DNA from: Macrostomum hystrix
Lineage: Eukaryota > Animalia > Platyhelminthes
Length of the DNA stretch: 64,000 nucleotides
Assembly: GCA_950097015.1 (NCBI GenBank)
Contig: CATNEN010000041.1
Coordinates: 3,646,386 to 3,710,385 of the forward strand
Reading direction: 5' to 3'
Of this stretch, positions 41,950 through 64,000 are shown one piece after another. The translations under genes were made by a program, and so were the position numbers. The notes below the pieces were generated by a model. That model worked only from the letters and a program-made list of their open reading frames with translations. It did not search any database and was not told the DNA's origin. Positions within the stretch are counted from its first letter, which is position 1, and the number at the start of each line of letters is the position of its first letter.

Positions 41950-42600
41950 TGCACGCGTGTGCAGTACATTAGCGAAAGTGAGCATACTTCGTAAGACATT
42001 CAAAACACAATACATTGATGCTCTATCCAAGTGCGCATGGGCCAGAGCATTAAAAATGAATCCGCTGCGGAAGTCAAGTCAGCCTTTGAGAGCGAAGCTT
42101 AAATCACTCGCACAGCTCCTTAACTCATCAGGTTCCACAAGTGCTGTATGGACAGGGGGTATTTTAGCTTTTCCAACAGCGAACAAAAGGCGGCTGTCAT
42201 AGAGCGATGGAAGCGGATCTTAAAGAATAAGATGTGGCGATATGTCACACAAGTTCGAATGGGTAGAGGATTGAACTGAGTCGAATTAAGTCTTGAAGAT
42301 TGCGTAAGACAACCCTAACCCTAAACTCAGCTCCATCTCTCTGCTACTCGCCGCTCATTTGCTCCCAGCCTAACCAAATACCCTACCTAGAACCCTCGCC
42401 TCCGCTCCCAAAGGCCCTTTTACTACTTCCGCGCTCTGCCATTCGCTGCACTGATTTGCTACTTTTTTAATGTATTCCAATTTATTATAAATGCAATATC
42501 AGTTCAATTGTATATTTCCCTTTATTCAGCTCTGAGGAAGATCTAATCTGGTCGAAACGCGTCGAGAAATTAAAACCAACTAGCCTGATCTAAAAATTGT
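41950..42600 (+). mobile_element. Decayed Penelope-like element 3' end / pLTR
   Basis: Weak GIY-YIG C-terminal-like residues (SLAQLLNSSG...RRL / ...RGLN*), then ACCCTAACCCTAA (42312-42324), a C-rich and AT-rich spacer and a hammerhead motif. Confidence 0.5.
42528..42566 (+). ncRNA. Degenerate minimal type I hammerhead ribozyme
   Basis: CTGAGGA-a-GATC(taatct)GGTC-GAAA-CGCGT-C-GAG; stem I weakened, consistent with loss of one C from GCTCCTGA. Confidence 0.7.
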
Positions 42601-44249: not shown

Positions 44250-46640
44250 AAGGGAGTCAGACCGCCAGTCACCGGGGCAGCGGATGCCATCATAGTTATG
44301 GCATAGATGCCAGCGAAGAGGCCGCTCCTCCTCTACGTAGGATGTGACCCGAGAAACTGTGCTTAGAGATTCCACAGCACGAAATGCCGCGCTTAAGGAG
44401 TCGGATGAAGGCCGAGTGACCTAACGGGACTCGACCGCGGGCACCCAGCCAAGAAAACTGGGGCTGCCGAGGCTCGAATATTTGGTTCTCGCGCAGGTGA
44501 GCGCTGAGTGCAGCGACTAGGCAAATCAAGGGGCAATTAGAACACTGAGAAAAAAAGACCAGCAGCAGCTGGCACTCCTTCAACTGGTTGGTATTGGAAT
44601 TCTCGATCAATGGAAGCCCCCTTCTCGTAGGGATCTAGGTCGGGGGCCCGCCCCTGCAAAGTGCTTCCTTCTTCCGGACATCTCATCAACGTTCCGGACC
44701 CCTACCCGCCGGCGGGTCTTCTTGTGGCCGGCAACTGGAGATGGTCGGAAAGGGCGGCCAGCGCTGAGATCTGCGAGGCACTAAGCACTCAGCCTAGACG
44801 ATCCCAGGGAAGCTCCTTTCAGCACGGCGGAGCTCGACACTGTGCTCAGAGTGACCGGAGGTAAGTACGCGGACGAACTCTCTGCAAAAGTTGGGCCGGA
44901 TGCCCAGATCAGCTGCAAAAACAGGCAGCCGGCACTCGACGCTGTGGAAACCTTGTAGGACCAACACCACTTTGTCCTGGCTCCCGAGAAGACGGACGCT
45001 TTGCTAGTAAGCACAAATCAGATAAAAGGCACGGAGGGCTTCCGCAATCTCAACCAACTCAGAGTTGGAGACAAAATACATGCTGCAACAAGGAGGTGCG
45101 GATACTCGGAGTCACATATGACGGCCAAATCTTCTTCACCGAACAAACTCGCCGAGTCCAGTCCATCATTCGCGGTGGGCTGACTGCCCTTCAAGTCGTA
45201 TCGGCCCGAGACTGGGGGCTGACACGGAAACCCTGGCTTCGTTCGCCCAGCTGGTCTGATACGCAGCAGATGTGTGGTGGCTATTCCTCGCTCGGACCAT
45301 TTGGGAGCTATCACAGGGGTCAGCCTGTGTTTGTTTGTTCATCACAGACGCAGGCCTCCAACCTCTCGACAGTGTCGACAACCTCTAGTGTCGACAGTTC
45401 CCGGCAAACCATCTAGTGCGGGAGATCACCAAGCCCAGTCTGGTTACAAGACTGTGGGCCAGAAACGATGGGCCGAGAGGTAGCGGTATTCCCGGACGGG
45501 CCTCCAGGTGATTCAGCAGCAGAACTGCAGGCGGCCCGGGCGGAGCTCCTCAGAAAGTTGCTTTTGATCATGCTTGGCGTTATCAGAAGCGGAGCGGTAG
45601 TTTGCAGACTGCATAAAGGCTGGCGGAGGCTTGTTGATGAGGCGAACGCCATCGTGAAGACAGTCATAAATAAATCTCTCGTCGGAGTCATTCCGCAACA
45701 GCAGATCCCAGGCGGCCAGGTTCATGTCAGAAGAGCGCAGTGCTGCGAAGGGAGCGGGAGTGGGGCGGGAAGCAGAGGCGACGATTGTGAGCAATATAAA
45801 AGGAGAGGGCGGCAAAGGGGATAAAAGTTGGCCGGCTAACAAAGAAATCGAGTTTTTTGCCCCCTTCACCGCATCACCGGTCTGCCGGTACTGGAGAGCG
45901 GGGTGCGTCTTGCAGACGAGTCGGTACCTGCAATTGAGTCGCTGACAGCCGGCTGGTTAATTGAAGCTCTACCAGATGGGGTCTGGCGGCTTCGTGGTGC
46001 CAGATTAGTGGCTTTCAGGTTGCGCGGAGCGTTGTGGAGGCGATGGTACAGCTGCAGGGGTTCGCGCTATCAGCTTGCAGTAGTCTTCGTCAAACACCCA
46101 TAATACATTCGGGCTGTAGTTGGCGTCAAGGAGTTCACCGATCTTCTGGTAGCCTCTCAGCTCGCTGGTGTCATGGACCCATCGGGGTTCAGGAAGATCG
46201 AGCCGTCATAAATTAGGCACCGAAGAATTTGAGCATTACCGGCAATCCATCGGTCGACGAGATCCTGATCCAATATTGGTGGCTGTTTTTTGAATACTAA
46301 TTAGTTGCCATTCTCCATGCAGGCCGTCAGGTTCTCGCTGGACTGGTTGGCATTGGGCTTGACAAAGTCGCGAATCCGAGATAGGCATGTTTTGTGCTTC
46401 CTATACTGCGATTTGTCCTCTGCAACTGTGTCGAAAAATGTCTTATATACACCAACAGGAAAACTCTTGGCTATCCTTAAGGCAGCGAAGCAGGGGGTCG
46501 GTGGCAGAGCGGTTATCGCGTTTGCCTCTCGCCCCATGGTCCCTAAGTTCGATTCCACGGCGAGGCCACATTTATTTTGGGCGCAGCCGCGGAGAGAAGG
46601 CTTGAGGGCTTGTCGTGCAATTTATGCCCTTGAGGCCAAC
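44250..46640 (-). mobile_element. Relic of a second, divergent Ngaro-like element
   Basis: gag-like FDEDY near 46100; RT N-terminus AWDLLLRNDSDERFIYDCLHDG...SANYRS (45513-45869); YR C-terminus FSGHILRRGGA (44296-44610). Confidence 0.7.
44640..45410 (+). mobile_element. Non-LTR RT fragment nested in the Ngaro relic
   Basis: YADE (YADD-like), LAPEKT, RILGVTYDGQIFFTEQ...LQVVSARDWG; degenerate. Confidence 0.65.
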
Positions 46641-47240
46641 CTCCAAGGCACAGTGAAATGTTACACTGCCTGACAATGAGAAAGTCAGGGCAGATGTACA
46701 CACCTGTGTGAGCGTATGCCTGCGTACAGTATATGTGTGCGTGTGTGCTCAGGAGTCAGCGAAATGGGCAGAATAGCCTCCTCGCTGGCTGCAGGTCTAG
46801 TGTCACTAAATGATGTTCCATTGCCCGCAGCCCTCCTGCAATTATTATTATTATTATTATTATTAAGGCAGCGAAGCAGAAGCCTGAGGCATGTTGAGCT
46901 CTCTTTGGAGGTTAGCATGGCGTCGAGTCAGAGCCTTGATCTCCAGCTCAGCAGTGCCAGCAGTGCCCCTTGCCGTCTCGCGCCTGCCCGTTGACCGCTA
47001 ATCGGTGAACTGTGAGTCGAGAAACTCGTCGTTAAACACAGGGTTGGCAGCAGAAGCTTCAAATTTTAGGTGCTGGCAAAGCCGGTCCTACAGCTTTTGT
47101 TCGCAGCCGGTCTTTGGTAGGCCGCGCTTGGCTAGCTCTCTGGTCGAGCTGCCTGGCTGTTAGTTTACGTACACTTTGTATGGTTGTTTTGGCGTTTTGG
47201 CGTTTGAAGTTCCCTTGCTTCGACGTAGTGGAATTTCGGG

Positions 47241-47296
47241 TTTGTGAAAGCGCCCTCAGGTAACCAGACATAGTTACAGTGTTAGGGTTTAAAACC
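47241..47296 (+). repeat. 56-bp dispersed repeat, copy 1
   Basis: TTTGTGAAAGCGCCCTCAGGTAACCAGACATAGTTACAGTGTTAGGGTTTAAAACC, identical to 51057-51112. Confidence 0.9.
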
Positions 47297-47452
47297 CCGT
47301 TGCAGGCGGTGGACTGTATATTTTCCTGTTTTCACACTTTTCACAGCATGCCTGCAAGGCGTGACTGTGCAAAGTAGACAGCAATGAACCCATCAGAACA
47401 GCAATAGAATCTATGGAAAAATTTTGCTTCTGTTTCAGAGCCCGATGCAGCA

Positions 47453-50400
47453 ATGTTTCGGTGCTTCGAAAAGATCTTGACGTTCATTGGGCTGAAGAGA
47501 CCTGTATACGATGAATTCAGAACAATATATGTCAACCATAAACAACTTCGATCAAAAGACCCGTTCAATGAGGAGAAGTACCCATCAAACCGGGTCATAA
47601 CTTCCCGGTACACTTTGGTTAATTTTCTAGTAAAAAATTTACTGGAGCAGTTCAGCAGAGTCGCAAACTTTTACTTCCTGATTGTAGCAGTCGTGCAGTT
47701 AGGAATCGATTCTCCAGTTAGTCCAGCTTCTTCGTTTATGCCATTGGTCTTTGTTCTCGGTGTCACAGCGATCAAGCAGGCATATGAGGACATCCTGCGA
47801 CACAGAGCAGATGAAAAAGTCAACAATACGATTTATAAAGTCATCCGAGAGGACTCACTTGCTGATGTGAAGGCCTTTGAGATTCGTGTTGGAGATGTCG
47901 TCAAAGTTCACAAAGACGAAAGCTTTCCATGTGACCTCATTTTGTTGACATCGTCTGAAGATTCAGGTGAGAGTTTTCTTTATTAACTTATTCGTTTTTT
48001 AAAGTACACTGACTGACAAAAGTTGTTCTTTGAGGGCTAACCCAAAGGTCTTTGTGTGCAAGAGGTTAATTTAAAACGTAAAGCTTGCTGTATTTGCGAG
48101 CATATACTAGGGAGTATTTTTTTCTAACCCTGACGAATATGAGCTCAATGCACTCTGATTAATGAATCAAAGTTCTTTACCCTTTTACAGTTAGTTAAAA
48201 GCTGAAAAGTATCGCAGTAAGGTACTAGTATTGTAGTTGAATTTAGCTTGTTGAAACTAGGTTCGGCCAGAAGGGGCCGGCTGACGGTATATTTTATAGA
48301 GTTAATCGTTAGAAGGACACAGCTTTGGGTGAAAATTTGTTAAAATTGGGGGTGGACTTAAGCCACAGGGTTCTCGTTTAAAAGAGTAAACGCGCGCTTA
48401 AACGATGTACGCGCATTGTACATATTCAAAGTACGTCTATGAGTTGGAGGCATGCACATGCCCAAACAACCAATTGAACAGGGAAAGTGGGGGTTAGAAA
48501 ATACGACATGAAAAAAATGATTTTGCACTTTTCCGCCACAAGTATGGAACACTAGTCTAGTTTTTATAGACCAATAATCATTCCAGTCTATTCTAGTTGT
48601 AAGACCGTGGGTTACGAGTAAGTTGTAGTGAATAACAAAATGTGAGCAGACCTCACACGCTCACGCCAATATATGTATTGCCAAAGTTGGGGTGGGCGTA
48701 AACACCCTATAAGCACGCACACGCTGCAGCGTCAACCCCCACTCCAAACAAGCCGCACGGCACATCTATGTGCACGCACACCAACAAGCCAGACTACATA
48801 GTGAACTAGTCTCAGTAAAAAGCACTAGATACAGTCCCACCGGCAAGTATAGCTTTATACAGTCCGAAAATACAATCGAAAAAATGTGCGCATATTATAA
48901 TAAAAAGGCACTGTTTTATACGAGCTATCAGCAACCTCATTATATTATATATAATAAAATTGAATCAGAGGTACGTTATATATTCTTAATAAGAAAATTC
49001 GGGTTATGCATAAATTAGAGAATTGCGTTATTAAAAAAATTCAAAAAATTTCAGGCGAATGCAGTATTACGACAGCTAATCTGGATGGTGAGACAAACTT
49101 AAAGGCTGTGTACTCAGTGGAGCCAACAAAGCCAATGAAGTCCGTCCAGACAATCTGCGCCAGCTTGCGCGCTCGAATCTCATGTGAGCAGCCAACTGCA
49201 GATCTCTACAAGTTTAAAGGTAACATTCTTGTCAGGCACAGATCCAGACCGTACGATAAGGTTCCACTTAGTTTGAAGAATTTGCTTCTGCGAGGAGCCG
49301 TTTTACGCAACACTGATTGGGTCTTTGGTGTGGCTGTATACACTGGACAGGAGACAAAAATGCAGTTAAATTCGCAGCATGGAAGGTCAAAGAAATCTGT
49401 GATTGAGAGAAGACTCGACAAGTTTTTGCTATGCTTTATGATAACCCTACTAATAGAGTCTATATTTTGCACCTCAATGAAATGGGGATATGCTACGCTG
49501 AATAAATCTGTTACGGAGGCTTGGTACGTTTCGCCTGAACCAGCCACGCCCTGGCGGGTAGTCCAAGATCTACTTGGCTTTATCGTGCTATTTAACTACT
49601 TGATTCCTATCTCTCTGTATGTTACCATTGAGCTTCAGAAATTCATCGGCTCCATTTTCTTTGAGTTAGACTTGGACATGTACTTTGAAGATCTTGAAAC
49701 AGGGGAGAAACTCAGAGCAAAGGCAAACACATCCGATCTTAATGAAGAGCTTGGCCAGGTTGAGTACCTTTTCTCTGATAAGACTGGAACTCTCACTGAG
49801 AATAAAATGACATTTAGAAAATGTTCGATTGGAAGACGAACATTTTGCGACCAGGATGGAGAATTGTGGGAGACAGAAGGTCCCGGTGGTAATCAACTGA
49901 GCCGCCAGAGAATGCTGGGTGAGCAAGAACTTCATTTCTTCATAGTTTTGGCCCTCTGCCACACAGTTCGAGTTGAGCGACCGAAGTCTTTTAGCAGGGA
50001 TTCAGCTGGCAAATTGCAAAAAGAGGATCATTCATACTCGGCATCGGAAGCTGAAAGCTACATGTACCAAGCCAGTTCACCAGATGAAAAGGCCTTTGCA
50101 GAAGCAGCAAGAAAGTACGGAGTGATCTTCCATGGTACGGAGGCCGGTGTTAGTATTCTTTCTGTTATGGGAGTCAACGGCAAGCAGATTATTCAGCGTT
50201 ACCGTGTCCTTCATGTGCTTGAGTTTGACTCCGATCGAAAATGCATGTCAGTCATATTACAGAGATCTAATGGAACCTACTGGTTACTGACTAAAGGAGC
50301 TGAGAGCTCTATGTTAGATAAGTGCTCATCCGGTGATCGGGACTCAATTGTGCAATATAGTGGCGAATTCGCTGTAGAAGGTCTTCGGGTACTGGTCATC

Positions 50401-52716
50401 GCACACAGGGAACTTTCAGAAGAGGAATATCGTCAAATGAATTCTCTGTTGCTCACTGCAGAGCAAGACGTGGCCCACAGGGAAGAAAAAATGATTGAGG
50501 CTTGCAAGTAAGTATTAACAAATCTTTTTGAACTCTTAGCCTAGCTTTCATACCCGCTTTTATATTACCACCCGCTTATATTATTTTATTATTATCACCC
50601 TTTCAAAAGCAACAGAGCCAGAAACCCGTATTTTTATCACAAAATCTCTCATTCAGGAAAGTAAAAGAATGCCATGAAGAACTTCAATACAGAGTTGTTT
50701 AAAAAACTGATCTATGACATAGGGACATAACCGAAGAAACAAATGAGTAAATAAATGAACAAAATAATGAGCGAATGCAAGGATTAATGAGTAAACGAAA
50801 AATAAAATATTTTATTAGAGGCAGCTTTTCGAGCATTCCATATCTCACGATCGTGTACGCGGTTGACCGCTACATCTAACTGCCGGGCCGATTGAACAAA
50901 ATATTCTCGTCGCTCAAAAGCTTCAATAATCGGAGCTCTAACATTATCCACTAGGACCACTGTATGTCAGAATTTGCGACCCCCAGCTGCACCTTTCTGA
51001 GGATTTAATTTTTTGTTACTTAGGGTGCAGTTGCACATTTTTCGCAGGACGATTATTTTGTGAAAGCGCCCTCAGGTAACCAGACATAGTTACAGTGTTA
51101 GGGTTTAAAACCTGATTATTCAGCTAATGCAACTTAAAAAACTTTAATGCGCTAACAGGTCGCTGAATTTTAAGTTTATATTCTTAGATTCTATTAGTAC
51201 GCAAGTGCTCGTAGTTAGCAAGATTCGTCCTGTTGTGCTCTAACTGTCTTCTGTATATAACATAAAATGCATTAAACTTAATGGCCTGCTGAATTTTCAC
51301 AATTGGTTTTATTTGGTATTATCACTTTTTAGGGCCGTGGAACGTGACCTTGAAGCTCTAGGATTGACGGCTGTTGAGGATGAACTGCAGGCAGGTGTCT
51401 CCGAGACAATAACTGCGTTGCGTCATGCGGGCATTCAGGTTTGGGTTCTCACTGGAGACAAACGAGAGACAGCAGAGAATATTAGTTTGTCAGCAGGACA
51501 CTTTACTGTGTCTATGCAACGCATTAGAATCATTGATCAACAGTCCGCAGATGAATGCCGTAGGAGTTTACTGCAGGGCCTGGAGGAAATTGCGGCCGCT
51601 GGTTTCCCACTATCAGCTCAATACTGTGCAGTGGTCGACGGCCAGTCACTGCAGTTTCTGGTAGCCGATGAGCACACTGACTTAAAGGAATTGTTCCTTG
51701 ATCTTTGTCGCAAAACATCTGCCGTATTGTGCTGCCGGTGCACACCGCTTCAGAAAGCGAAAATTGTCGCAATGGTTAGGAAAGGAATTCAGCCAGAGCC
51801 CATAACCTGCGCTATCGGTGACGGCGCAAACGATGTATCTATGATTCGAGAGGCCCATGTTGGCCTTGGAATATTTGGTAAAGAGGGTCGTGCGGCCGCT
51901 CTAAATTCAGACTATTGCTTTGCAAAGTTTAGGTTTGCCCGTAATGCTCTTCTGTTCCATGGTCACTTGTACTATGTCCGCCTGGCAACTCTTGTTTTAT
52001 TTTTCTTTTACAAGAATGTAGCCTTCATAACTGCTGAGTTGTACTATGCATTCTTCTCGGCGTTCAGCGCACAGTCAGTGTATGACACAATTTTTCTAAC
52101 AATATACAACATGACAATGACAGCTCTGCCTGTGTTGATCTACGGTTTATTTGAGCAGCATCTGCCACGAAAACGGCTGGAGAATGAACCAAATCTGTAT
52201 AAAGACATTGCACAGAACAGAATGCTCTGGTGGAGAGAACTAATTAAATGGTGCTCCATAGGATTGTGGCATTCAATCTGCTGCTTCTTTGGTGTTTTTG
52301 CCGTATTCTCAGTCAATGATTGGGTTGGAACAAATGGCTTCGTCTTTGATGTTTATGCCTTCGGCACCGTAGTCATTTATTGCGTGCTTGCGTGCGTCAC
52401 AGCACGTATTCTGATAGTTACGTTTAGTTTCCACGTGCCTGTCCTAGTTGGCTTTCTGGTTACTACCTTAGGTTTTGTTATCATCATGTGTATTAACAGT
52501 GTTTCGACGGCGACTTTGTTATCCAACCATCTGACTTTTTTGTGGGCCTATTTCGACATTAGCCTGCAACCAGTATCTTGGCTTCTACTGCTATCTATCA
52601 CAGTGCTGGCTATGACGCCAGACTTTATTGTGCGCTGCGTGCAGGACATTCGTACTGACAGGCTAACTAAAAGGCGAATGACTTCCGAGCTACCGGTGAG
52701 AGTTATAAAGCATTAA
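47453..52716 (+). CDS. ATP11: P4-type ATPase phospholipid flippase (ATP11-like), about 1116 aa, 3 exons
   Basis: Exons 47453-47966, 49055-50507, 51333-52716 with GT-AG and matching phases; motifs LDGETNLK, PISLYVTIE, SDKTGTLT, YQASSPDE, IGDGANDVSMI, C-terminal TM helices. Subfamily assignment by motif memory only. Confidence 0.92.
48598..48798. mobile_element. Solo LTR in flippase intron 1
   Basis: TGTAAG...CTACA, 201 bp, flanked by a perfect 4-bp TSD TAGT (48594-48597 and 48799-48802); shares GGGGTGGGCGTA with the Gypsy 1 LTR. Confidence 0.8.
51057..51112 (+). repeat. 56-bp dispersed repeat, copy 2 (flippase intron 2)
   Basis: Identical to 47241-47296. Confidence 0.9.
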
Positions 52717-54375
52717 TTATTTATGTTTACTTCATTTCATTTTTTTGGACAAGAAGCGCTTTGTCTGTTTGCATGCTTGGCTGTTGGCTGTTATAAGTAG
52801 CAAGACGAGACTAACTAGGAACTCGCAACAGCATACAATACGCTCGTAAATTCTTAGTTGTTAAAACTATCTTTAATTGTCTAAGTGAGGGTGTTAACTT
52901 GAGTTAACTAAGTTAAACGTGTTTCACCATTGCACATTTCCCCGAGTTTAATTTAGGACACTATTTTAACTAGAAATTGTATTATTTAGCACCTGCACTT
53001 TAAAAACTTGCAACGCCGCAGGATACCGAACACCAACCGGCTGCCTCTGAATTTCATTATTCATCTAATGATCAGAATGGAGCCTTCGTTAATTGTAGAT
53101 TCGTAAGTTGTGTCTGGTATAGTTCATTTCTATTTTTTACTCCATTTAAATTTCTATCTATACTATCATTACTTTACTTTCTTGAAAATCTTCTCTGCCA
53201 CTATACCAATATTATGCAGCCAAATGCAGATTTCTTCGTGTTTTCATGGCCATTGCACAGAGCACAGGCCGAGCCCAACTGAATGAGGATTCGGAGGTGC
53301 AGTACTCCAGCCAGAGCTCAGGCCATTGCCAAAGGAAAGACTGTTCTGGGGTACAGCACTCGTGCCAGGACGTTGGCTTAGCTAACAATGCTTTCTTTCA
53401 AGATCGAGTCTGATTTTTGTACAAGTGTGCATTGGTTTCAGGGACTAGAGAACCAGCTTTCAGAAAAGAAATTTATTTTTGCATTGTTTTTTATATTTTA
53501 ACGTCCTTTTTGCTACCATTTATATAATAACGTTCGATTAGTTCTGTAGCGATGAATCTCTACTCTAATTTATTGCTGGTCTCAGCTAAGCTCGAGGCAT
53601 TCGGCGTGTTGACAGAACCTCTGCACTGGTGGGATATGAAGCTCTACCTATAGTTTTGTAATGCTCTTTAATTATGTTTTGTTTACTCGCAGTTTTTGCG
53701 TTTCTCTGTTTACGTTGCTTAGTAAATTAGTTGCTCTTTAAAGTCACCTTTAAAAAAGGCAAGGTGCAAATTCGAATGGTGATTATATCAAATGGGAACA
53801 ATAGCTCTGTTTTGCGCATTTTTTGTCGCTGTGAAAATAAAGATATGAAGTTCCTAGATAACTTTATGAGCACCTTATGTTGAGTCCGAGTTTCTGTATA
53901 AATCATAATTGTTTGTTGTTTACCTTCTGATTTCTGAAGTTGTTTATCAGATCAGTACGTATGCTCCTCAATAAAGATAGCCAAATATAGGCTTTTTGCT
54001 TTTGGCACTGTACGCGCCTGTAGCACGTAAAGAAAAAACTAAAGAAAAAATATTCTAATATTATTTTTATGCATAAAATAATAATTATGCATAAATATGC
54101 AAATGGTATGCTAATAAGCATACGTATTATAATTTAATTTTTACATTACTCGTCAATCATGTGACATGGTATGCTGTGAAAATTAACAAAATGCTTGCAC
54201 AAGACTGTGATTTTACCTCTACGTTGCACATTACGTTTAGCATAGCAGCAGACTTTTCTTAACAATTCTATGTATTTTTTACTTTCACTGTACGAGCTAC
54301 TTATCAAAGGAATGAGCTAGAAATACTTTGTGTCGGGATTGGTTTAATTAGCAGTATAAATTACAAATTAGAGTT

Positions 54376-54592
54376 ATTTAAACGGCTGAGCTGGTTGGAA
54401 ATAACGAGGCTGGACAAAAAGGCAACTGGCACAAACACAAAAATTAGCAAACGGTTACCCAGCCACGGGGGCTGAGCACAAGGCTAAATAACCAGGCCGA
54501 CACAGCCACACCACACACGCCAACCCCCAAGTACGCGCGCCCCAAACGGACAGACGGGCGAATTCAGACGCAGCACACCCAGCCGTTTAAAT
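54376..54592. mobile_element. MITE-like element with 13-bp terminal inverted repeats
   Basis: ATTTAAACGGCTG (54376-54388) and CAGCCGTTTAAAT (54580-54592) bound a GC-richer 217-bp island in AT-rich DNA. Confidence 0.5.
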
Positions 54593-55540
54593 CATTTTAC
54601 CGACTGTACGTGCGGCGGTGGCAAGTTGCGCATATCCGTGCCTATGTAGAATCACCTATATTTTGCGAATCAGATTAAACGTCCGCCCTCGTGATTTATT
54701 AAAATACCTCCCTCAAAATGCGTGTGTACTCTCATGGATCATATACGCTCGTGTGAAGCTTAGGAATTTTTTGTCTATTGTCACAACCAACAAAGGAATA
54801 GAAAATGGAGTATAGCTCAATAAAAAAACTTGATTATTGTCTCATAAAAAATCTTGCAATCACAAAGTTTAATCCTGGAGGGCAAAACATATATGGTTTA
54901 TAAATATTTTTCTGGATCCAATTTTTTGCTACAACAATTCCGTCACCTTACTTCTGTGCTTCACTGCTTTATTGCCTAAAGTTGCTCTATCTTCAAGTAA
55001 ATTAAAATGAATCAAAATCTATAAAACGTCTTTTATTTTACTTAACAATACTTTGTCTTTACACGTTTCTCGCTATTTAATCCATGATATGGTAATGCTT
55101 CTTTTTTTAGTCGCAGATTTTTATTCCTAAATAAAATCTCAAACTGAACTCTTAAGCTTAAGCTGAGACTTGCTTTTCTCAATCTGTTTTTTTTTCTTAT
55201 TATGAAGCAAACCTTTTGTAGGTGGCATAGAGCTGCACTGTACCCCCGAGGAGTTGTATTAAAAATTACACAACCCCAATTTTAAATGGCGAAATACATT
55301 AGAAGTACCGTATAGGAAAATGGGTTAGGAGTTAGGAACAGATCCGGTCTGCCGACTCCTTGCTAGATGACAAATGACGGAGGCTAAGAGGACAAAAGTA
55401 AATTTAGGTAGCTTTATGTAACTTTAGGTAGGGTTAGGGTTAGGACTTAGGAGGATTCCGAGGCCGGCAGGCAATCGACAGACGAGAATTAGTAATTTAA
55501 TTTAGTAAGCAAGACGGGGAACAATATAATTAGGGTAAAT

Positions 55541-55555
55541 GCTCGACGCGTTTCG
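55541..55555 (-). ncRNA. Half hammerhead (CGAAACGCGTCGAGC) truncated by telomeric repeats
   Basis: Plus strand GCTCGACGCGTTTCG is followed directly by AGGTTAGGGTTAGGGTTAGG; the CUGANGA half is missing. Confidence 0.75.
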
Positions 55556-55657
55556 AGGTTAGGGTTAGGGTTAGGAGTTAGGAACCGATCCGGTTCCGGT
55601 CGACTGCTTAATAAAAAAAGTCTAAGAGGAGACAGGCGGAATTTTTGGTTTTAAAAT

Positions 55658-55695
55658 GCTCGACGCGTTTCGGCGGGTTTGCCTTTATCAAGAGC
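55658..55695 (-). ncRNA. Hammerhead ribozyme motif with mutated core
   Basis: Minus: GCTC-TTGATAA-a-GGC(aaaccc)GCC-GAAA-CGCGT-C-GAGC; two core changes versus CUGANGA. Confidence 0.75.
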
Positions 55696-55982
55696 TAGTT
55701 AAGTGAAGAGTCTAAGGTGTGGCGGGTATATTTGTATATATAATAATAAATTTATATTAAAAAGATGGGCGCGAGGGTCGAGAGCGAATAAAAAGAGGGT
55801 TGGGGTTACAATTAACAAATGGGAGTTGAGCAGGGGTAAAAAATAAACAAATGGGAGAAAAAATGAGGGTCTGCATAGGGTCTGGGTGGGGTCTGAGTGA
55901 AAAAAGGTTAGGGTTAGGAGTTAGGAACAGATCCGATCTGACGAAAAGGAGTCAAGCTAAAGAGGATTCTAGGATTTAAGTT

Positions 55983-56020
55983 GCTCGAGCGCTTTCGGCG
56001 GGATTGCCTTCTTCAGGAGC
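55983..56020 (-). ncRNA. Intact minimal type I hammerhead ribozyme
   Basis: Minus: GCTC-CTGAAGA-a-GGC(aatccc)GCC-GAAA-GCGCT-C-GAGC; palindromic stem III AGCGCT. Confidence 0.88.
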
Positions 56021-56428
56021 TTAGATTGAGTGAAGAGTGGATAGTGGACAGTATATTTGTATATATAATAATAAATTAACATTAAAAAGATGGGCGCAAG
56101 GGTCGGGAGCGAATGAAAAGAGGGTAGGGGTTACAATTAACAAATGGGAGTTGAGCATGGGTAAAAAAATGTCAAATGGGAGAAAAATTGAGGGTCCGCA
56201 TAGGGTTTGAGTAAAAGATTAGGACAAATGGGAGAAAAAGTGAGGGTCTGGGTGGGGTCTAAGTGGAAAAAGGAAGGGTCGGTATTGGATTGGGCAAGGG
56301 TGGGCCGGGAGGTTAGGACTTAGGAGAATTCCGAGGCCGGCAGGCAATCAGCAGACGAGAATTAAGTGTAAATAATTTAATTTAAATCGATAAAGTAAGC
56401 AAGACGGGGAACAAAATAAATAGGGTAT

Positions 56429-56466
56429 GCTCGACGCGTTTCGATCGTCTGATCTTCTTCAGGAGC
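56429..56466 (-). ncRNA. Intact minimal type I hammerhead ribozyme
   Basis: Minus: GCTC-CTGAAGA-a-GATC(agac)GATC-GAAA-CGCGT-C-GAGC; GUC cleavage triplet. Confidence 0.9.
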
Positions 56467-56948
56467 GAGTGTATTATAAAACGATGTAAATATTGTAAAT
56501 ATTGTAGATAATGTAAATATTGGCAGTGGAAAGTGAGTTAAAAATCAATTGCATTGGGTTACATAAGAAAAAAATGGGCTTACTCGGGTGCAATAATAAC
56601 GTCCTAAAAATTAAGTGTTGTCTAAATTTTAAAAGTATGAAATATCATTTAACGCTAATTTTACTACTAATGAAATAAAGGTAATAAATTGTGGGTAGAA
56701 AGTAAAAATTAAAAATTAGGAAAGACATTTTTCAATACATATCGGGGAGTAGAAAAATAGGTAAAGAGTAAAACAATGAAGCAGATTGAAGATAGGAGGG
56801 GAAGAGAAAAATTAGAGGATAAAAATGCAGAAGGCTAGGGTTAGGACGTAGGAGAATTCCGAGGCCGGCAGGCAAGAATTTAATGTAAATAATATAACTT
56901 AAATCAATAAAGAAAGCAAGACGGGGAACAAAAAATATAAATATGGTG

Positions 56949-56988
56949 GCTCGACGCGTTTCGGGAATATTTTCCCTTCTTCAGGAGC
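56949..56988 (-). ncRNA. Intact minimal type I hammerhead ribozyme
   Basis: Minus: GCTC-CTGAAGA-a-GGGAA(aata)TTCCC-GAAA-CGCGT-C-GAGC. Confidence 0.9.
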
Positions 56989-57648
56989 GATGTAAAACGA
57001 TGTTTATTGTAAATATTGTAAATATTGTATATAAGTAGTATAAAAAAATATGAAACAAACGCGTTTTCCTTATGGAGAAATACATAGGTAGTACCGCATA
57101 GGAAATGCCTATACATTTAACTCAAAACGCACCAAAAATTTTCTAAGTCCTAACTCGCACGAGGAATTTTTCTAAGTCAAAGTCTATCTCTCTCTCTTCT
57201 CTCTCTCTCTATCTCTGTCCTTAGCATGTTGTTAAAAAAATTCCAAGTCCAAACTAACTGCTCATTTAGTGTGCAGATAAGAATTCAGAGACACGCTAAC
57301 AATCTGAAATGTTGATATGTTGAATCTGATATGTTGAATCAGTTTTATTTAAAGCTACCACTAGCGAGAGTTGCTGCACACAGACTTAATGACATTGTCA
57401 CACTAACTTGAAAAAATATTCTACCACAAATTAATGTTTCTGTCTTATTCATCAGATTCGGTACGAAGCTTTTTGTTGAAACAGAAATTTTTATTTAATT
57501 CCACACGCGGTAACATATGACACATGCTAAAATATTGTCGAAACAACTAGCCATAAAATAATTCAAGACTTGCTTTTGAAGCATCGCACCATTTTATGCA
57601 TCTCTTAATGCACTTACAGTATACTTAAACCGTTAACATGACCAACAG

Positions 57649-58218
57649 TCATAGATAATGAATTAAAATTCGTAAAACAAAAGATCGCAGTTTAACATAG
57701 GCTTTTCGGAAAGAATCACTTCGCGAGACATTGCGCTTAGAAATACTCTTTAGAAAGACGTGCAGAGTTTTTCGAATAGTCAATTTATAAAAGACATAAA
57801 ATACAGCCCAAAAGCCACAGCTACCGCTTCGAGGGTCTTGGACAGCAAAGCGAGTATAACTCCAATTTCTTGCCCCACCACATTGTATTCCTAACCAACG
57901 TGCCACAGATGCAATCGGATGGAGTCCAAGTGAATCGAAATATTCTCCATATCTTTTACCCTGTCGACCTGCATAGGACGTATTTCCATGCACCCAAACA
58001 CAAACCCAATGTTTTCCAGGTAGATTAGAAGTGTCTGTGTTTACAATAAAAAAATAATCCTTTTCATTAAGTGGAAGATGCTTAATACTTAATACAAAAT
58101 CTTGGGGGAATACTCCTAAGAAGACAGCATGCGAAAAATAAGCGCACAGTTTTGTAGCAATAGACCGAAGAAATCGATCTGTAACACCGTTTTGTAGAAT
58201 AGAATCAATTACTTCCAT
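57649..58218 (-). CDS. Polinton/Maverick adenain-like cysteine protease (189 aa)
   Basis: VNTD...GKHW, EYFDSLG, VQDPRSGSCG: His/Asp/Gln/Cys motifs present. Confidence 0.88.
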   Translation of the reverse strand: MEVIDSILQNGVTDRFLRSIATKLCAYFSHAVFLGVFPQDFVLSIKHLPLNEKDYFFIVNTDTSNLPGKHWVCVWVHGNTSYAGRQGKRYGEYFDSLGLHPIASVARWLGIQCGGARNWSYTRFAVQDPRSGSCGFWAVFYVFYKLTIRKTLHVFLKSISKRNVSRSDSFRKAYVKLRSFVLRILIHYL

Positions 58219-59532
58219 GCAGTTCCAGGAACAACGTCACGAAGCTCAGTTAGTTGCAATTGCTTGTCAAAAATTCCTCCAAATATGACGTTGTACACAG
58301 TGCTAGTTGCAGAACTGAATCGCAGCTCAATTTTCACGTTTCCTTCCTTATACAGTTGAACACCATGACCGATACCTGGTTCACTACCGAGACTAAAGGC
58401 AAAAATAGAGTATCCATTCGCATATTCACCCATAGTGAAACCAATGTCACGTCCTTGCAGATAAAGACCCAGTTGCTGTAGAAGAAAAGTATACTCTGTC
58501 ACACAATCACCTTCAAAGTTGGTTTGCAGCGGCCGGCATGGCATTGACTCTCCATTTACAAACACACCGATGCTGTTAACGTTAGCATGCTCAAAGTTGA
58601 ATGGATTCGTGTCCATGCTTCCATTGAATGCTCGGTTATTTACAAAAGCTAATAATAAAAGCCGTGGAACTCCACTTGGGAATAAATTCTCGTGCGTGTG
58701 GCTGGATGATCCGCGAGGAATAGTAAATGTTCCCATGCTTAGACTCCGGTGGGGATATAGAGCATTGTGGCTTTTCAGACCATGTGCATGAGCACTAGTA
58801 ACGCTAGGTGATGGTTGGACAAGTCGCAGTCGTAATTCTGCTCGCAAGAACCTAATTTCATAATCTTTAAGTTGCACATCGCTTCCTATTGATGCACCAC
58901 TCAAAACAAATTTGCTTTTTGCTGGTGTTAATTTGATACGCATTGGTGTCTTTGAAAGTAGATATCGCGGTTGACGAAAAAGATCTAAAAATAGAGGACC
59001 AGACACTGTACAATGACGATTTTCAGCAATCAACGATCGCCTCTTCGTTCGTCCTTCGTTATCGTTTGTTGAATTCATTTTACCAGCAGTATCTTTGTAG
59101 AAACCCCAAGGTACCAGACCTGACTTCTGTGCTGTGTGTCCATACTCAAGAAGTGTTAGAAGCATTGCCTTGTAGGGATACATGAAGCTTCCACCTTCAA
59201 CAACAGTGTCTCCAATAGTAAATTGCACATCTTCAAACAATGTTGCGATTGCTAAGTTGTTTACACACACATAGTTTTTTTGCAGCATCAATTGCGTTAC
59301 CTTCTCCGTCGCTGACGCGGAAGCTAACTGTTAGCACAGTATCATGCAGATCTAAATACAGATCTCCAGGCGGTACAATCTCAAACTCGATTGGAGAACC
59401 TTTTGTTATCCCATGTTGTGGTTGAATGTCTGTGTAGCGACTTTCTAAAACACTGAATTGAACAGGTGTCTGGTCAAAGAGAGAGAGTTCGCTTTTCAAT
59501 GCAGCAATGTCGGGACCGAGAAGTTGATTCAT
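58209..59532 (-). CDS. Polinton/Maverick major capsid protein, split by one frameshift near 59260-59281
   Basis: N-part MNQLL...ELSLF...PIEFEI...YLDLHDT joins C-part VNN...LF...YPYKAMLLTLL...GPL..DLF.Q..YL...NPFNF. The break lies at an A7 / TG-repeat tract. Confidence 0.8.
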
Positions 59533-59533
59533 G

Positions 59534-59968
59534 TTATTTTCCGAATAAACTAAAAAGCTTCTTGCTTGCAGCGGAGTTTTGCTTTCCTCTTCGTTTCTTG
59601 ACTCTGTAGGCACTTCGTCCTCCTCGTCGTCTTGTTACACCTCGTTTTTTTCCTTTACGTCTTAAGCTTATAGGTCTAGCTGCTCTCTTTCGTCGCTTGT
59701 TGGTTAAGGTAGGCGTGTCAAACATGTCTTCTTCAGAAGTTGAGTTCGCGTGCCGCTTGCGCCCCATACCGATTTTGCTGGCAGCGCTTTTAAAATAATC
59801 TAGGCTGCGATCCAGAAGATCCTTTTTAGCATTACGTATTACAGGAAATAGCAGTCTTTCAGCCAAGTTTGATAGGAATCCGTATCCTTCGTAGACGGGG
59901 ATTGCAGATGCTCCTCGTCCACCGATTGAATTATTTGGACCGGAATAGAAGGCGAATATCGGATCCAT
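59534..59968 (-). CDS. Polinton pVII-like basic core protein (144 aa)
   Basis: GG.G...YEGYGFLSNLAERLLFPV N-terminal motif and Arg/Lys-rich C-terminus; lies between integrase and capsid. Confidence 0.65.
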   Translation of the reverse strand: MDPIFAFYSGPNNSIGGRGASAIPVYEGYGFLSNLAERLLFPVIRNAKKDLLDRSLDYFKSAASKIGMGRKRHANSTSEEDMFDTPTLTNKRRKRAARPISLRRKGKKRGVTRRRGGRSAYRVKKRRGKQNSAASKKLFSLFGK

Positions 59969-60001
59969 GACTTATTATTAAGCGATATCAGTTTTTCAGC
60001 T

Positions 60002-61153
60002 TTACTTATACACACGAGCAAACAGTCTAGCAGTCTTTGCATCGAGATCTTTTTCACTCAGCCACTGACTCCGTGAAATTGGCATGTCTTTCCACTTTAC
60101 TAAATACAAACGATTACCCTTCTGCGATCGATCTGTTTCGAGAACCTTTTCTATATCGACAGGTTCCTCATCCACTTCATTCACGAGTAGAAGTTCATCC
60201 TCGTTGAATCTTCCTTCTAGCAAATCGAAATTATCTTCTGAATCAGCTAATTCATACATTGGCGGGTCAGACAGGTGAACATGATGAACACGAAACTTTG
60301 AATTGCTCCAAATTGTTGTGTAACCCTTTTCAAAAATTCCTCGTCGTCGGAGAATTCGCACCCAATCACCAACTTTGAATTTTGGTTTTGAAGTGCGCAC
60401 TTGTGTAAACATTTTGTCCCATAGAATTCCTTGAAGATGTTCATCATTCTCTACTCGTTTCGGTGTTTCTCCACTTAAAGCTCGATGTGGACTTGCGTTG
60501 AAATTTTTCTCTAACTGTGGCAATATGTCAAACCAACGTGCTAGATTCTTAGCTCGAAAGTATCGTTGCAGGCGTTCTTTTAGAGATCGAATAAATCTTT
60601 CTGCCAGGCTAGCCTTGTAGGAACTTTGAGAAACGAAAAACCTCACTCCCTCCTGTTTTAGCATTTGTCGCGTTGATTTTCCAAGAAACTCCATGCCTGC
60701 GTCGCCTTGTAAATAAACTGGTTTGAAGCCACTTCGAAAAATATCTTGCAGCACTTGCAGCACTTCGCTAGGTTTCTTTGTCTTTAATGGTCTAAGTCGA
60801 ATGCTTCGCGTGAAGCAGTCAATTAGAACTAGTATGAAACGATAACCTCGATTTTCAGTTTTATACTGCGGCAGGTCGGCTAAATCGATTTGAAACTGGA
60901 ATCGTGCCACGGGTGGTACACTAATTTTTGGTGTCAGAAATTTTTTAGACAACTTTTGAAATAAATGGTGCTCTTTTGTTGATCGTACCCAACTTTGTAC
61001 TTCCTTTCGTGCGTCTTCATATTTTATCTGTGGAAATTCTTTGCGCACAGCACGAACAAGTTCAGATCTATTACCTGAGAACGAAGTTGGATTTTCCAAG
61101 TTGAAGAAAGAATCAGATAGAAACTGAGCAATACTTTTACGTATTCCTTGCAT
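60002..61153 (-). CDS. Polinton/Maverick retroviral-like integrase with C-terminal chromodomain (383 aa)
   Basis: FFNLENPTSFSG, QIDLADL, YRFILVLIDCFTR, LQGDAGMEF, KASLAERFIRSLKE (33 residues between second D and E); chromodomain IEKVL...YLVKWKD...SQW. Confidence 0.9.
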   Translation of the reverse strand: MQGIRKSIAQFLSDSFFNLENPTSFSGNRSELVRAVRKEFPQIKYEDARKEVQSWVRSTKEHHLFQKLSKKFLTPKISVPPVARFQFQIDLADLPQYKTENRGYRFILVLIDCFTRSIRLRPLKTKKPSEVLQVLQDIFRSGFKPVYLQGDAGMEFLGKSTRQMLKQEGVRFFVSQSSYKASLAERFIRSLKERLQRYFRAKNLARWFDILPQLEKNFNASPHRALSGETPKRVENDEHLQGILWDKMFTQVRTSKPKFKVGDWVRILRRRGIFEKGYTTIWSNSKFRVHHVHLSDPPMYELADSEDNFDLLEGRFNEDELLLVNEVDEEPVDIEKVLETDRSQKGNRLYLVKWKDMPISRSQWLSEKDLDAKTARLFARVYK

Positions 61154-61179
61154 TGATTGTATTGCAGCAAATGAAGCTT

Positions 61180-61404
61180 GGGTTAGGGTTAGGGTTAGGG
61201 TTAGGGTTAGGGTTAGGGTTAGGGTTAGGGTTAGGGTTAGGGTTAGGGTTAGGGTTAGGGTTAGGGTTAGGGTTAGGGTTAGGGTTAGGGTTAGGGTTAG
61301 GGTTAGGGTTAGGGTTAGGGTTAGGGTTAGGGTTAGGGTTAGGGTTAGGGTTAGGGTTAGGGTTAGGGTTAGGGTTAGGGTTAGGGTTAGGGTTAGGGTT
61401 AGGG

Positions 61405-61445
<41 letters not shown>

Positions 61446-64000
61446 GGTTAGGGTTAGGGTTAGGGTTAGGGTTAGGGTTAGGGTTAGGGTTAGGGTTAGG
61501 GTTAGGGTTAGGGTTAGGGTTAGGGTTAGGGTTAGGGTTAGGGTTAGGGTTAGGGTTAGGGTTAGGGTTAGGGTTAGGGTTAGGGTTAGGGTTAGGGTTA
61601 GGGTTAGGGTTAGGGTTAGGGTTAGGGTTAGGGTTAGGGTTAGGGTTAGGGTTAGGGTTAGGGTTAGGGTTAGGGTTAGGGTTAGGGTTAGGGTTAGGGT
61701 TAGGGTTAGGGTTAGGGTTAGGGTTAGGGTTAGGGTTAGGGTTAGGGTTAGGGTTAGGGTTAGGGTTAGGGTTAGGGTTAGGGTTAGGGTTAGGGTTAGG
61801 GTTAGGGTTAGGGTTAGGGTTAGGGTTAGGGTTAGGGTTAGGGTTAGGGTTAGGGTTAGGGTTAGGGTTAGGGTTAGGGTTAGGGTTAGGGTTAGGGTTA
61901 GGGTTAGGGTTAGGGTTAGGGTTAGGGTTAGGGTTAGGGTTAGGGTTAGGGTTAGGGTTAGGGTTAGGGTTAGGGTTAGGGTTAGGGTTAGGGTTAGGGT
62001 TAGGGTTAGGGTTAGGGTTAGGGTTAGGGTTAGGGTTAGGGTTAGGGTTAGGGTTAGGGTTAGGGTTAGGGTTAGGGTTAGGGTTAGGGTTAGGGTTAGG
62101 GTTAGGGTTAGGGTTAGGGTTAGGGTTAGGGTTAGGGTTAGGGTTAGGGTTAGGGTTAGGGTTAGGGTTAGGGTTAGGGTTAGGGTTAGGGTTAGGGTTA
62201 GGGTTAGGGTTAGGGTTAGGGTTAGGGTTAGGGTTAGGGTTAGGGTTAGGGTTAGGGTTAGGGTTAGGGTTAGGGTTAGGGTTAGGGTTAGGGTTAGGGT
62301 TAGGGTTAGGGTTAGGGTTAGGGTTAGGGTTAGGGTTAGGGTTAGGGTTAGGGTTAGGGTTAGGGTTAGGGTTAGGGTTAGGGTTAGGGTTAGGGTTAGG
62401 GTTAGGGTTAGGGTTAGGGTTAGGGTTAGGGTTAGGGTTAGGGTTAGGGTTAGGGTTAGGGTTAGGGTTAGGGTTAGGGTTAGGGTTAGGGTTAGGGTTA
62501 GGGTTAGGGTTAGGGTTAGGGTTAGGGTTAGGGTTAGGGTTAGGGTTAGGGTTAGGGTTAGGGTTAGGGTTAGGGTTAGGGTTAGGGTTAGGGTTAGGGT
62601 TAGGGTTAGGGTTAGGGTTAGGGTTAGGGTTAGGGTTAGGGTTAGGGTTAGGGTTAGGGTTAGGGTTAGGGTTAGGGTTAGGGTTAGGGTTAGGGTTAGG
62701 GTTAGGGTTAGGGTTAGGGTTAGGGTTAGGGTTAGGGTTAGGGTTAGGGTTAGGGTTAGGGTTAGGGTTAGGGTTAGGGTTAGGGTTAGGGTTAGGGTTA
62801 GGGTTAGGGTTAGGGTTAGGGTTAGGGTTAGGGTTAGGGTTAGGGTTAGGGTTAGGGTTAGGTTAGGGTTAGGGTTAGGGTTAGGGTTAGGGTTAGGGTT
62901 AGGGTTAGGGTTAGGGTTAGGGTTAGGGTTAGGGTTAGGGTTAGGGTTAGGGTTAGGGTTAGGGTTAGGGTTAGGGTTAGGGTTAGGGTTAGGGTTAGGG
63001 TTAGGGTTAGGGTTAGGGTTAGGGTTAGGGTTAGGGTTAGGGTTAGGGTTAGGGTTAGGGTTAGGGTTAGGGTTAGGGTTAGGGTTAGGGTTAGGGTTAG
63101 GGTTAGGGTTAGGGTTAGGGTTAGGGTTAGGGTTAGGGTTAGGGTTAGGGTTAGGGTTAGGGTTAGGGTTAGGGTTAGGGTTAGGGTTAGGGTTAGGGTT
63201 AGGGTTAGGGTTAGGGTTAGGGTTAGGGTTAGGGTTAGGGTTAGGGTTAGGGTTAGGGTTAGGGTTAGGGTTAGGGTTAGGGTTAGGGTTAGGGTTAGGG
63301 TTAGGGTTAGGGTTAGGGTTAGGGTTAGGGTTAGGGTTAGGGTTAGGGTTAGGGTTAGGGTTAGGGTTAGGGTTAGGGTTAGGGTTAGGGTTAGGGTTAG
63401 GGTTAGGGTTAGGGTTAGGGTTAGGGTTAGGGTTAGGGTTAGGGTTAGGGTTAGGGTTAGGTTAGGGTTAGGGTTAGGGTTAGGGTTAGGGTTAGGGTTA
63501 GGGTTAGGGTTAGGGTTAGGGTTAGGGTTAGGGTTAGGGTTAGGGTTAGGGTTAGGGTTAGGGTTAGGGTTAGGGTTAGGGTTAGGGTTAGGGTTAGGGT
63601 TAGGGTTAGGGTTAGGGTTAGGGTTAGGGTTAGGGTTAGGGTTAGGGTTAGGGTTAGGGTTAGGGTTAGGGTTAGGGTTAGGGTTAGGGTTAGGGTTAGG
63701 GTTAGGGTTAGGGTTAGGGTTAGGGTTAGGGTTAGGGTTAGGGTTAGGGTTAGGGTTAGGGTTAGGGTTAGGGTTAGGGTTAGGGTTAGGGTTAGGGTTA
63801 GGGTTAGGGTTAGGGTTAGGGTTAGGGTTAGGGTTAGGGTTAGGGTTAGGGTTAGGGTTAGGGTTAGGGTTAGGGTTAGGGTTAGGGTTAGGGTTAGGGT
63901 TAGGGTTAGGGTTAGGGTTAGGGTTAGGGTTAGGGTTAGGGTTAGGGTTAGGGTTAGGGTTAGGGTTAGGGTTAGGGTTAGGGTTAGGGTTAGGGTTAGG
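61180..64000 (+). repeat. Terminal telomere (TTAGGG)n, about 470 repeats, runs to the window end
   Basis: Pure TTAGGG with only three variants: TTTAGGG near 61423, TTAGG near 62858 and 63457. Confidence 0.99.

What the first reader, a model, noticed from the sequence alone, without database searches (positions are those of the whole stretch)
56837..61180. Polinton virion/integrase module between a hammerhead unit and the telomere: Terminon-like element with viral cargo?
Seen: on the minus strand the order is telomere, integrase-chromodomain, pVII-like core, major capsid, adenain protease, about 660 bp non-coding, intact hammerhead, CCTAA/CCCTA seed. All ORFs are co-oriented with the hammerhead, tightly packed (gaps 33 bp, 1 bp, 10-bp overlap) and almost intact. 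No pPolB, packaging ATPase, minor capsid or TIR is present. Known: these four genes are Polinton/Maverick hallmarks; Terminons are telomeric PLE units with co-oriented captured ORFs and 3' hammerheads; I know of no report of Polinton capsid modules as such cargo. Inference: either (a) a 4.3-kb RNA with Polinton genes was retrotransposed onto the chromosome end by a PLE RT, forming a retro/DNA-virus chimera, or (b) a Polinton inserted beside the units and was broken and healed by telomerase.
Basis: partly seen in the sequence, partly recalled or inferred. Interest (0 to 1): 0.92.

Follow-up and report, generated by a model that had tools for sequence, protein, structure and literature searches.

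The report
Broken Polinton in telomeric retroelement stack
A 4.1-kb piece of a virus-like Polinton transposon, with one intact end, sits inside a short repeat carrying a ribozyme-like motif at a chromosome tip and stops at the telomere; it was most likely inserted as DNA and later cut off and capped, not carried there as RNA cargo.

Summary
The genes, their order and spacing, the hammerhead motif and the telomeric seed are all there. "No TIR" is wrong. A 254-bp terminal inverted repeat (57,034 to about 57,287) starts with the Polinton end motif AGTAGT. It has twice the contig depth of the element's interior and sits exactly where likeness between neighbouring hammerhead units stops. Other copies (about four per genome) continue with non-telomeric DNA past 61,179, so the telomere caps a break in a longer element. 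Integrase-capsid-protease on one strand is the standard Maverick module, so co-orientation says little. An older 70-bp TIR stub (55,252-55,321) is also capped by telomeric repeat, with no hammerhead unit on its inner side. Best reading (0.65): a young Polinton inserted as DNA into the last unit of an Athena/Terminon-like stack, and the end was then lost and healed, as happened to every unit there. Rivals: one-ended or end-biased integration (0.17); a Polinton-interrupted unit copied here as RNA (0.10), which the break 26 bases before the integrase start codon does not exclude. No listed contig bridges either junction, and RNA was not tested.

The parts
55252..55321 (.). Older, diverged Polinton TIR start, cut after 70 bp and capped by the seed of unit B1
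   Evidence: 54 of 75 columns identical to 57034-57106, in register from TIR base 1; score 61 against a best of 28.5 elsewhere among 24,356 windows; spanned by an identical single-copy-depth contig 54480-55458
55322..55431 (-). Unit B1, 110 bp, 5'-cut before its hammerhead
55432..55556 (-). Unit A1, 125 bp, cut inside its hammerhead
   Evidence: 112 of 136 columns identical to A2
55557..55905 (-). Unit B2, 349 bp, hammerhead 55658-55695 with altered core
55906..56310 (-). Unit B3, 405 bp, hammerhead motif 55983-56020
   Evidence: 266 of 330 columns identical to B2
56311..56836 (-). Unit A2, 526 bp, hammerhead motif 56429-56466
56837..57033 (-). Unit A3, 197 bp left: telomere-like seed 56837-56852, 96-nt spacer, hammerhead motif 56949-56988, 45 bp of AT-rich tail; interrupted by the Polinton
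   Evidence: alignment to A2 ends at 57033; seed junction spanned by an identical contig at depth 80.7
57034..57287 (.). Polinton terminal inverted repeat, 254 bp, starting AGTAGT; inner edge approximate
   Evidence: contig 57034-57138 identical, depth 634 against 310-343 for the interior; other flanks joined at 57034 in X2 and X6; loose ends behind 57287 in X1 and X2
57288..57648 (-). Non-coding stretch behind the protease, with two poly(A)-signal-like hexamers (57344, 57490)
   Evidence: function not tested
57649..58218 (-). Adenain/Ulp1-type cysteine protease, 189 aa
   Evidence: Atlas 0.96-0.97 to clusters partly labelled Peptidase_C5/C48; ASFV S273R protease E 0.0064; Pfam C48 and C5 only E 0.051
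58209..59532 (-). Double jelly-roll major capsid gene, in two frames (59233-59532 and 58209-59288)
   Evidence: both pieces match 442-aa homologues at 65-68%; model of the 359-aa piece pLDDT 94.7, Foldseek to PBCV-1, Sputnik and mavirus capsids, best E 2.5e-10
59534..59968 (-). Small basic ORF, 144 aa, in the slot of the Maverick PW gene; identity not confirmed
   Evidence: 1 unnamed homologue, 33% identical; slot from PMC8097293
60002..61153 (-). rve integrase with C-terminal chromodomain, 383 aa
   Evidence: Pfam rve E 2.2e-7 (31.5 bits, under the 32.6 cut-off), Chromo E 3.7e-6
61180..64000 (+). TTAGGG telomere array, joined to the Polinton 26 bp before the integrase start codon
   Evidence: 470 copies, 99%; other copies go on with non-telomeric DNA at 61179

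Best explanation
A 4,146-bp piece of a Polinton/Maverick, starting at an intact terminal inverted repeat, lies inside the last of six short hammerhead-type repeat units and ends at the telomere; most likely an ordinary Polinton was inserted here as DNA by its integrase, and the chromosome tip was later lost inside the element and probably healed by telomerase. Steps: (1) short non-autonomous units were added head-to-tail to this end, probably by a Penelope-like reverse transcriptase acting in trans (structure shown, enzyme inferred); (2) a young Polinton went in at 57033|57034 (junction shown, integrase action inferred from the exact end); (3) a break or erosion at 61179 removed the rest of the element, its second TIR and the rest of the unit (loss shown by longer copies elsewhere, cause inferred); (4) new TTAGGG repeats were added (shown; telomerase inferred). 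The piece lacks polymerase, ATPase and a second end, so it would not move by itself.
For: Exact Polinton end: the window reads AGTAGT at 57034, the commonest Maverick end motif (PMC8097293). An identical contig starts at that base with depth 634, 2.0 times the interior. Unit-to-unit likeness stops at 57033. Different flanks meet 57034 in X2 and X6. Longer copies: a 6,446-bp contig in X1 runs 3,475 bases past 61179, X2 shows the same non-telomeric continuation, and X3/X4 contigs run 181 bases past it. Interior depth is about 4 times the host flank. Integrase, PW, major capsid and protease on one strand is the conserved module. All five inner units (110-526 bp) are 5'-cut and followed by telomere-like repeat, so terminal loss is routine here. 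The older TIR stub has no unit-like sequence on its inner side (14 comparisons, none above the shuffle maximum), so a Polinton end reached this place without a hammerhead unit. 14 of 19 listed differences from other copies fall on third codon positions (p 4e-4): a young copy of a lineage under selection. Analogue: MAGGY insertion into a truncated MoTeR, and truncation with new telomere seeded on one T (bioRxiv 10.1101/845669, passages).
Against: No listed contig spans 57033|57034 or 61179|61180 of this copy (28 of 39 pieces hidden, 128 of 160). The X2 and X6 flanks fall short of the tool's 31-letter bridging rule (12 loose letters; 30 matching letters). The target-site duplication cannot be checked. 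A chance hit into a 200-bp terminal unit by one of about four copies is improbable, and two Polinton ends within 1.8 kb need explaining. The break lies 26 bp before the integrase start codon, where an mRNA could begin. The module points the same way as the units (1 chance in 2). X1 may be the source sample; X1-X4 are one study, and X3 and X4 look like one data set.
Confidence: 0.65

Rival explanations
1. Polintons of this lineage reach chromosome ends non-randomly: either the chromodomain integrase prefers subtelomeric chromatin, or one-ended integration cuts off the distal chromosome, which only survives near a tip. The free end of the element is then trimmed and capped by telomerase. The distal TIR may never have been joined.
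For: Two Polinton TIR starts, 1.8 kb apart, each cut and capped by telomeric repeat; no other match to this TIR start among 24,356 windows of the 61 kb. The integrase has a chromodomain, suggested to influence site choice (PMC8502044, passage).
Against: n = 2 at one end, one of them chosen by the finding. The other visible flanks of the TIR (X2, X6) look neither telomeric nor unit-like in the letters shown. TIR depth is twice the interior, so most copies have both ends. Full insertion plus later loss gives the same sequence.
Confidence: 0.17
2. Two-step RNA route: a Polinton first inserted into a hammerhead unit elsewhere; an RNA starting just before the integrase gene read through capsid, protease, TIR and hammerhead to the seed, and a Penelope-like reverse transcriptase copied it onto this end.
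For: Same strand as the units; intact seed and hammerhead motif; 5' end 26 bp before the integrase start codon. Terminons carry long cargo and are 5'-cut by telomeric repeats (PMC6431247 section 8). Composite cassettes are inferred to transpose in MoTeR arrays.
Against: It needs the same unlikely insertion plus a second event and a donor, none seen. The product would be 4.3 kb against 110-526 bp for the five inner units. Two poly(A)-like signals lie between protease and TIR (weak). The older stub has no unit on its inner side. No reverse transcriptase gene lies in the stack.
Confidence: 0.1
3. The unit-TIR-Polinton piece was copied or moved as DNA from another chromosome end (break-induced replication or telomere capture).
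For: Such copying is inferred for MoTeR arrays; the units are multi-copy and offer homology.
Against: The junction inward of A3 is spanned at single-copy depth (80.7 against 72.5-82.5). It only moves the insertion event elsewhere.
Confidence: 0.05
4. Misassembly: a Polinton copy was joined wrongly to the unit or to the telomere.
For: No listed short-read contig spans either outer junction.
Against: The inner joint falls on TIR base 1, as a real insertion would. Junctions further in are spanned by identical contigs. Contigs with TTAGGG may be filtered out as human-like, by the tool's own text.
Confidence: 0.03

Closest known systems
Polinton/Maverick elements (PMC8097293: passages and section 7 read; adintoviruses, PMC8502044: passages)
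   Same: rve integrase with chromodomain, double jelly-roll capsid, adenain-like protease, one-strand integrase-to-protease module, (AGT)2 end, TIR length within the reported 46-1,447 bp.
   Different: Only 4.1 kb of a reported 12.7-24.6 kb; one TIR; no minor capsid between integrase and the small ORF; the module points towards the TIR, as reported for the cane toad, not towards the centre; capsid gene frameshifted in this copy.
Athena/Terminon endonuclease-deficient Penelope-like elements (review PMC6431247, section 8 read; primary papers not held)
   Same: Head-to-tail, 5'-cut units at a chromosome end, joined by short telomeric repeats, with a hammerhead motif and reverse-complement telomere-like repeats at the 3' end.
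   Different: Units are 110-526 bp with no ORF; the seed is 96 nt behind the hammerhead and imperfect; the ORFs begin beyond a foreign TIR rather than inside the unit.
Type I hammerheads of metazoan PLEs with short palindromic helix III (PMC4209133, passages)
   Same: Conserved core, bulged base before helix II, palindromic loop 3; helix II differs among the units yet stays paired.
   Different: Not scored by Rfam; cleavage not tested.
MoTeR arrays of Magnaporthe telomeres (bioRxiv 10.1101/845669, passages)
   Same: Secondary transposon insertion into a telomeric retroelement; truncation followed by new telomere.
   Different: Fungal non-LTR elements with their own enzymes; the secondary insert is an LTR element, not a Polinton.

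Membership tests
Polinton/Maverick | Retrovirus-like integrase | tested here: met
   Pfam rve E 2.2e-7 (just under the curated cut-off) and Chromo above its cut-off
Polinton/Maverick | Double jelly-roll major capsid | tested here: met
   Model pLDDT 94.7; Foldseek hits to PBCV-1, virophage and adintovirus capsids. A sequence-profile search of the PDB found nothing.
Polinton/Maverick | Adenovirus-like cysteine protease | tested here: met
   Atlas 0.96-0.97, ASFV S273R E 0.0064; not folded; no homologue at E 0.001
Polinton/Maverick | TIR with (AGT)2 or (AG)3 end | tested here: met
   One end: 57034 to about 57287; motif
Polinton/Maverick | Second TIR and 6-bp target-site duplication | tested here: inconclusive
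   Absent from this copy, which ends at the telomere; doubled TIR depth implies two TIRs in other copies
Polinton/Maverick | Protein-primed polymerase, packaging ATPase, minor capsid | tested here: inconclusive
   Not in this piece. The contig DNA beyond 61179 was not available as sequence, so the other copies were not read.
Polinton/Maverick | PW / core-protein gene | tested here: inconclusive
   Right slot and basic composition; 1 unnamed homologue; Atlas did not answer. The pVII likeness is recalled, not tested.
Athena/Terminon (the six units) | 3' hammerhead plus reverse-complement telomeric repeats | tested here: met
   3 full motifs, 1 altered, 1 cut, 1 unit cut before it; seed 96 nt behind the motif in A3
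Athena/Terminon (the six units) | Head-to-tail 5'-truncated array joined by telomeric repeats | tested here: met
Athena/Terminon (the six units) | PLE reverse transcriptase ORF | tested here: not met
   No such ORF in the stack. The 3 RVT_1 hits among 15 ORFs scanned lie 26 kb or more inward, 1 with a tyrosine recombinase and 2 with LTR-type RNase H.
Terminon (unit plus Polinton genes as cargo) | Cargo ORFs as part of one RNA-copied unit | tested here: inconclusive
   A TIR end separates genes from unit; no donor or transcript could be sought
Hammerhead ribozyme | Self-cleavage | not testable with these tools
   Pattern and paired helices only

The most novel reading that the evidence does not exclude
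A telomere-attaching Penelope-like system copied a Polinton capsid-integrase module onto the chromosome end as RNA: a Polinton inserted into a hammerhead unit, and a read-through RNA beginning 26 bases before the integrase start codon was reverse-transcribed onto the telomere, giving a DNA-virus/retroelement chimera. A second unexcluded reading (0.17) is that these Polintons repeatedly cut chromosome tips by one-ended or end-biased integration.
Probability: 0.1. Interest if true: 0.75.

Novelty: new member of a known kind. Interest (0 to 1): 0.3.

Why it matters
As best read, it is a clear snapshot of chromosome-end turnover: retro-units added, a DNA transposon inserted, the tip lost and healed. 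It also records an Athena-like non-autonomous unit stack with TTAGGG telomeres and a young Polinton family. That is useful but ordinary. It would matter more if Polinton ends proved enriched at chromosome tips (a link between Polinton integration and terminal deletion), or if a donor locus and read-through RNA turned up (virus genes moved by a telomeric retroelement). I saw neither in the listings of six paper searches (titles and abstract starts only), and the primary Terminon and Athena papers were not held.

Tried and rejected
No whole genome is held, so other loci could not be read. Rfam: nothing relevant. Related loci with the capsid alignment: 0 confirmed of 131 candidates in viral contigs and 0 of 361 in metagenome contigs, so gene order and TIRs of close relatives were not seen. 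Protease homologue search: 0 of 30 candidates. Capsid profile against PDB sequences: 0. No RNA holder listed; expression is untested. The joint 61195 to 56427 was set aside as a probable false joint between telomere-like letters. The inverted match 56312-56330 / 57136-57154 was considered as an inverted unit end; it lies inside the TIR and was not followed up. Depth arithmetic for the copy number of the 57033|57034 junction was dropped, because hidden contigs and related families make it unsolvable. Microhomology at the telomere junction: at most one or two T bases in the window, uninformative. Earlier-findings look-ups by place, by sequence and one by words returned nothing. No supplementary files were read; they may hold gene maps of invertebrate Polintons that bear on gene order.
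Full report
1. Observation. The last 9 kb of the window hold, from inside out: a stack of short repeats (55322-57033), 4,146 bp of Polinton-type DNA (57034-61179) and 470 TTAGGG repeats from 61180. The integrase hits Pfam rve (E 2.2e-7, just under its cut-off) and Chromo. The capsid gene lies in two frames, broken between 59233 and 59288; both pieces match 442-aa homologues. The 359-aa piece, folded with 121 homologues, gives pLDDT 94.7 and matches double jelly-roll capsids. The protease resembles adenain/Ulp1 proteases (Pfam only E 0.051). The small basic ORF could not be named.

2. The hammerheads. Rfam finds none. A descriptor of my own (stem I, core, stem II, short helix III) gives 3 hits in 61,179 bases, all on the minus strand in the stack; 0 of 1000 shuffles of the stack reach 3. 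Stem II differs between units and stays paired. This fits the type I motifs with palindromic loop 3 described for PLEs (PMC4209133, passages). The stack is six head-to-tail units of two families; each begins, on the plus strand, with a short telomere-like seed, and five are 110-526 bp and 5'-cut. That is the Athena/Terminon layout (PMC6431247, section 8), without any ORF. Cleavage and the mobilising enzyme are inferred, not shown.

3. The missed TIR. Likeness between units A2 and A3 stops at 57033. At 57034 the window reads AGTAGT, the commonest Maverick end (PMC8097293, section 7). In run X1 an identical 105-bp contig starts at that base with depth 634; interior contigs have 310-343 and host-flank contigs 72-83, ratios of about 8:4:1. 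The tool warns that depth is no copy number, so this is approximate. Contigs in X2 and in X6 (another study) join other sequence to 57034; these are short (12 loose letters; a 30-letter match) and fall under the tool's bridging rule. Loose ends behind 57287 in X1 and X2 mark the inner edge. So the non-coding gap is 45 bp of unit, a 254-bp TIR and 361 bp behind the protease.

4. The telomere caps a break. A 6,446-bp X1 contig matches 58208-61179 with 17 differences and 1 gap, then runs 3,475 bases further; X2 shows the same non-telomeric continuation; X3 and X4 contigs run 181 bases further. All four runs are one study, X1 may be the source sample, and X3 and X4 look identical. Of 19 listed differences inside ORFs, 14 fall on third codon positions (p 4e-4; 13 of 15 without one cluster; one search listed 40 of 169 rows). 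The copy is therefore young and comes from a lineage under selection. Contigs in all four runs lack the capsid frameshift, so it is private to this copy or an assembly error.

5. Co-orientation. Integrase, minor capsid, PW, major capsid and protease form a one-strand module in vertebrate Mavericks. Four co-oriented genes are thus one observation, and their match to the unit strand is 1 chance in 2.

6. A second Polinton end. 55252-55321 aligns to the TIR from its first base (54 of 75 columns; score 61 against 28.5 as the best elsewhere among 24,356 windows) and is cut off by the seed of the innermost unit. An identical contig spans it at single-copy depth. Its inner flank resembles no unit and no part of the Polinton (14 comparisons, none above the shuffle maximum). 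This end arrived without a hammerhead unit behind it, which favours DNA insertion. It also raises the question of an end bias, on n = 2.

7. Mechanism. Shown: unit stack, exact TIR junction, longer copies elsewhere, telomere at the cut. Inferred: integrase insertion in place, terminal loss, telomerase healing (0.65). The fungal MoTeR arrays show the same kinds of event (bioRxiv 10.1101/845669, passages). Against: neither outer junction is spanned by a listed contig (11 of 39 pieces shown, 32 of 160), the target-site duplication is lost, and the break lies 26 bp before the integrase start codon. Rivals: one-ended or end-biased integration (0.17), RNA copying of a Polinton-interrupted unit (0.10), DNA copying from another end (0.05), misassembly (0.03). 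No genome was held and no RNA holder was listed, so a donor or transcript could not be sought.

8. Comparison and novelty. The piece files as a truncated Polinton/Maverick; polymerase, ATPase and minor capsid could not be read in other copies. The units work like Athena/Terminon 3' ends but have no reverse transcriptase, so they are at most non-autonomous relatives. The whole is not shown to be a Terminon with cargo. Six paper searches (listings only) showed no report of Polinton cargo in telomeric PLEs or of Polinton targeting to ends; a further search gave the adintovirus paper and another nothing used. The primary Terminon and Athena papers were not held; I read the outline of one preprint on retrozymes and passages of PMC9683012 without using them. 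An earlier scan note reached a like verdict for a fungal case (e1-9707221; unchecked). Interest 0.3; new member of a known kind.

Noticed in passing
window 55252-55321: Second, older Polinton TIR start at the inner edge of the stack, cut after 70 bp and capped by telomere-like repeat.
   Followed up: yes
window 55322-57033: Two unit families (A, B) alternate; they share little beyond the seed and the hammerhead palindrome. Contigs show family members elsewhere, one joined at 56838 to non-telomeric DNA.
   Followed up: partly
window 57136-57154: Inside the TIR, 19 bases are 84% complementary to the 3' end of unit A2 (I7); may be chance.
   Followed up: no
window 54369-54599: Inverted arms of 20 nt, 191 nt apart, with raised contig depth: a probable MITE.
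   Followed up: no
window 3075-6576: Tyrosine-recombinase retrotransposon with a long open RT-recombinase frame.
   Followed up: no
window 37572-53000: Host genes nearest the end: LRR and PDZ exons (37572-40503) and a P4-type phospholipid ATPase in long exons (47408-52716), which points to an animal host (host inferred).
   Followed up: no
window 60756-60760: Four differences from other copies within five bases of the integrase gene, probably one event.
   Followed up: no
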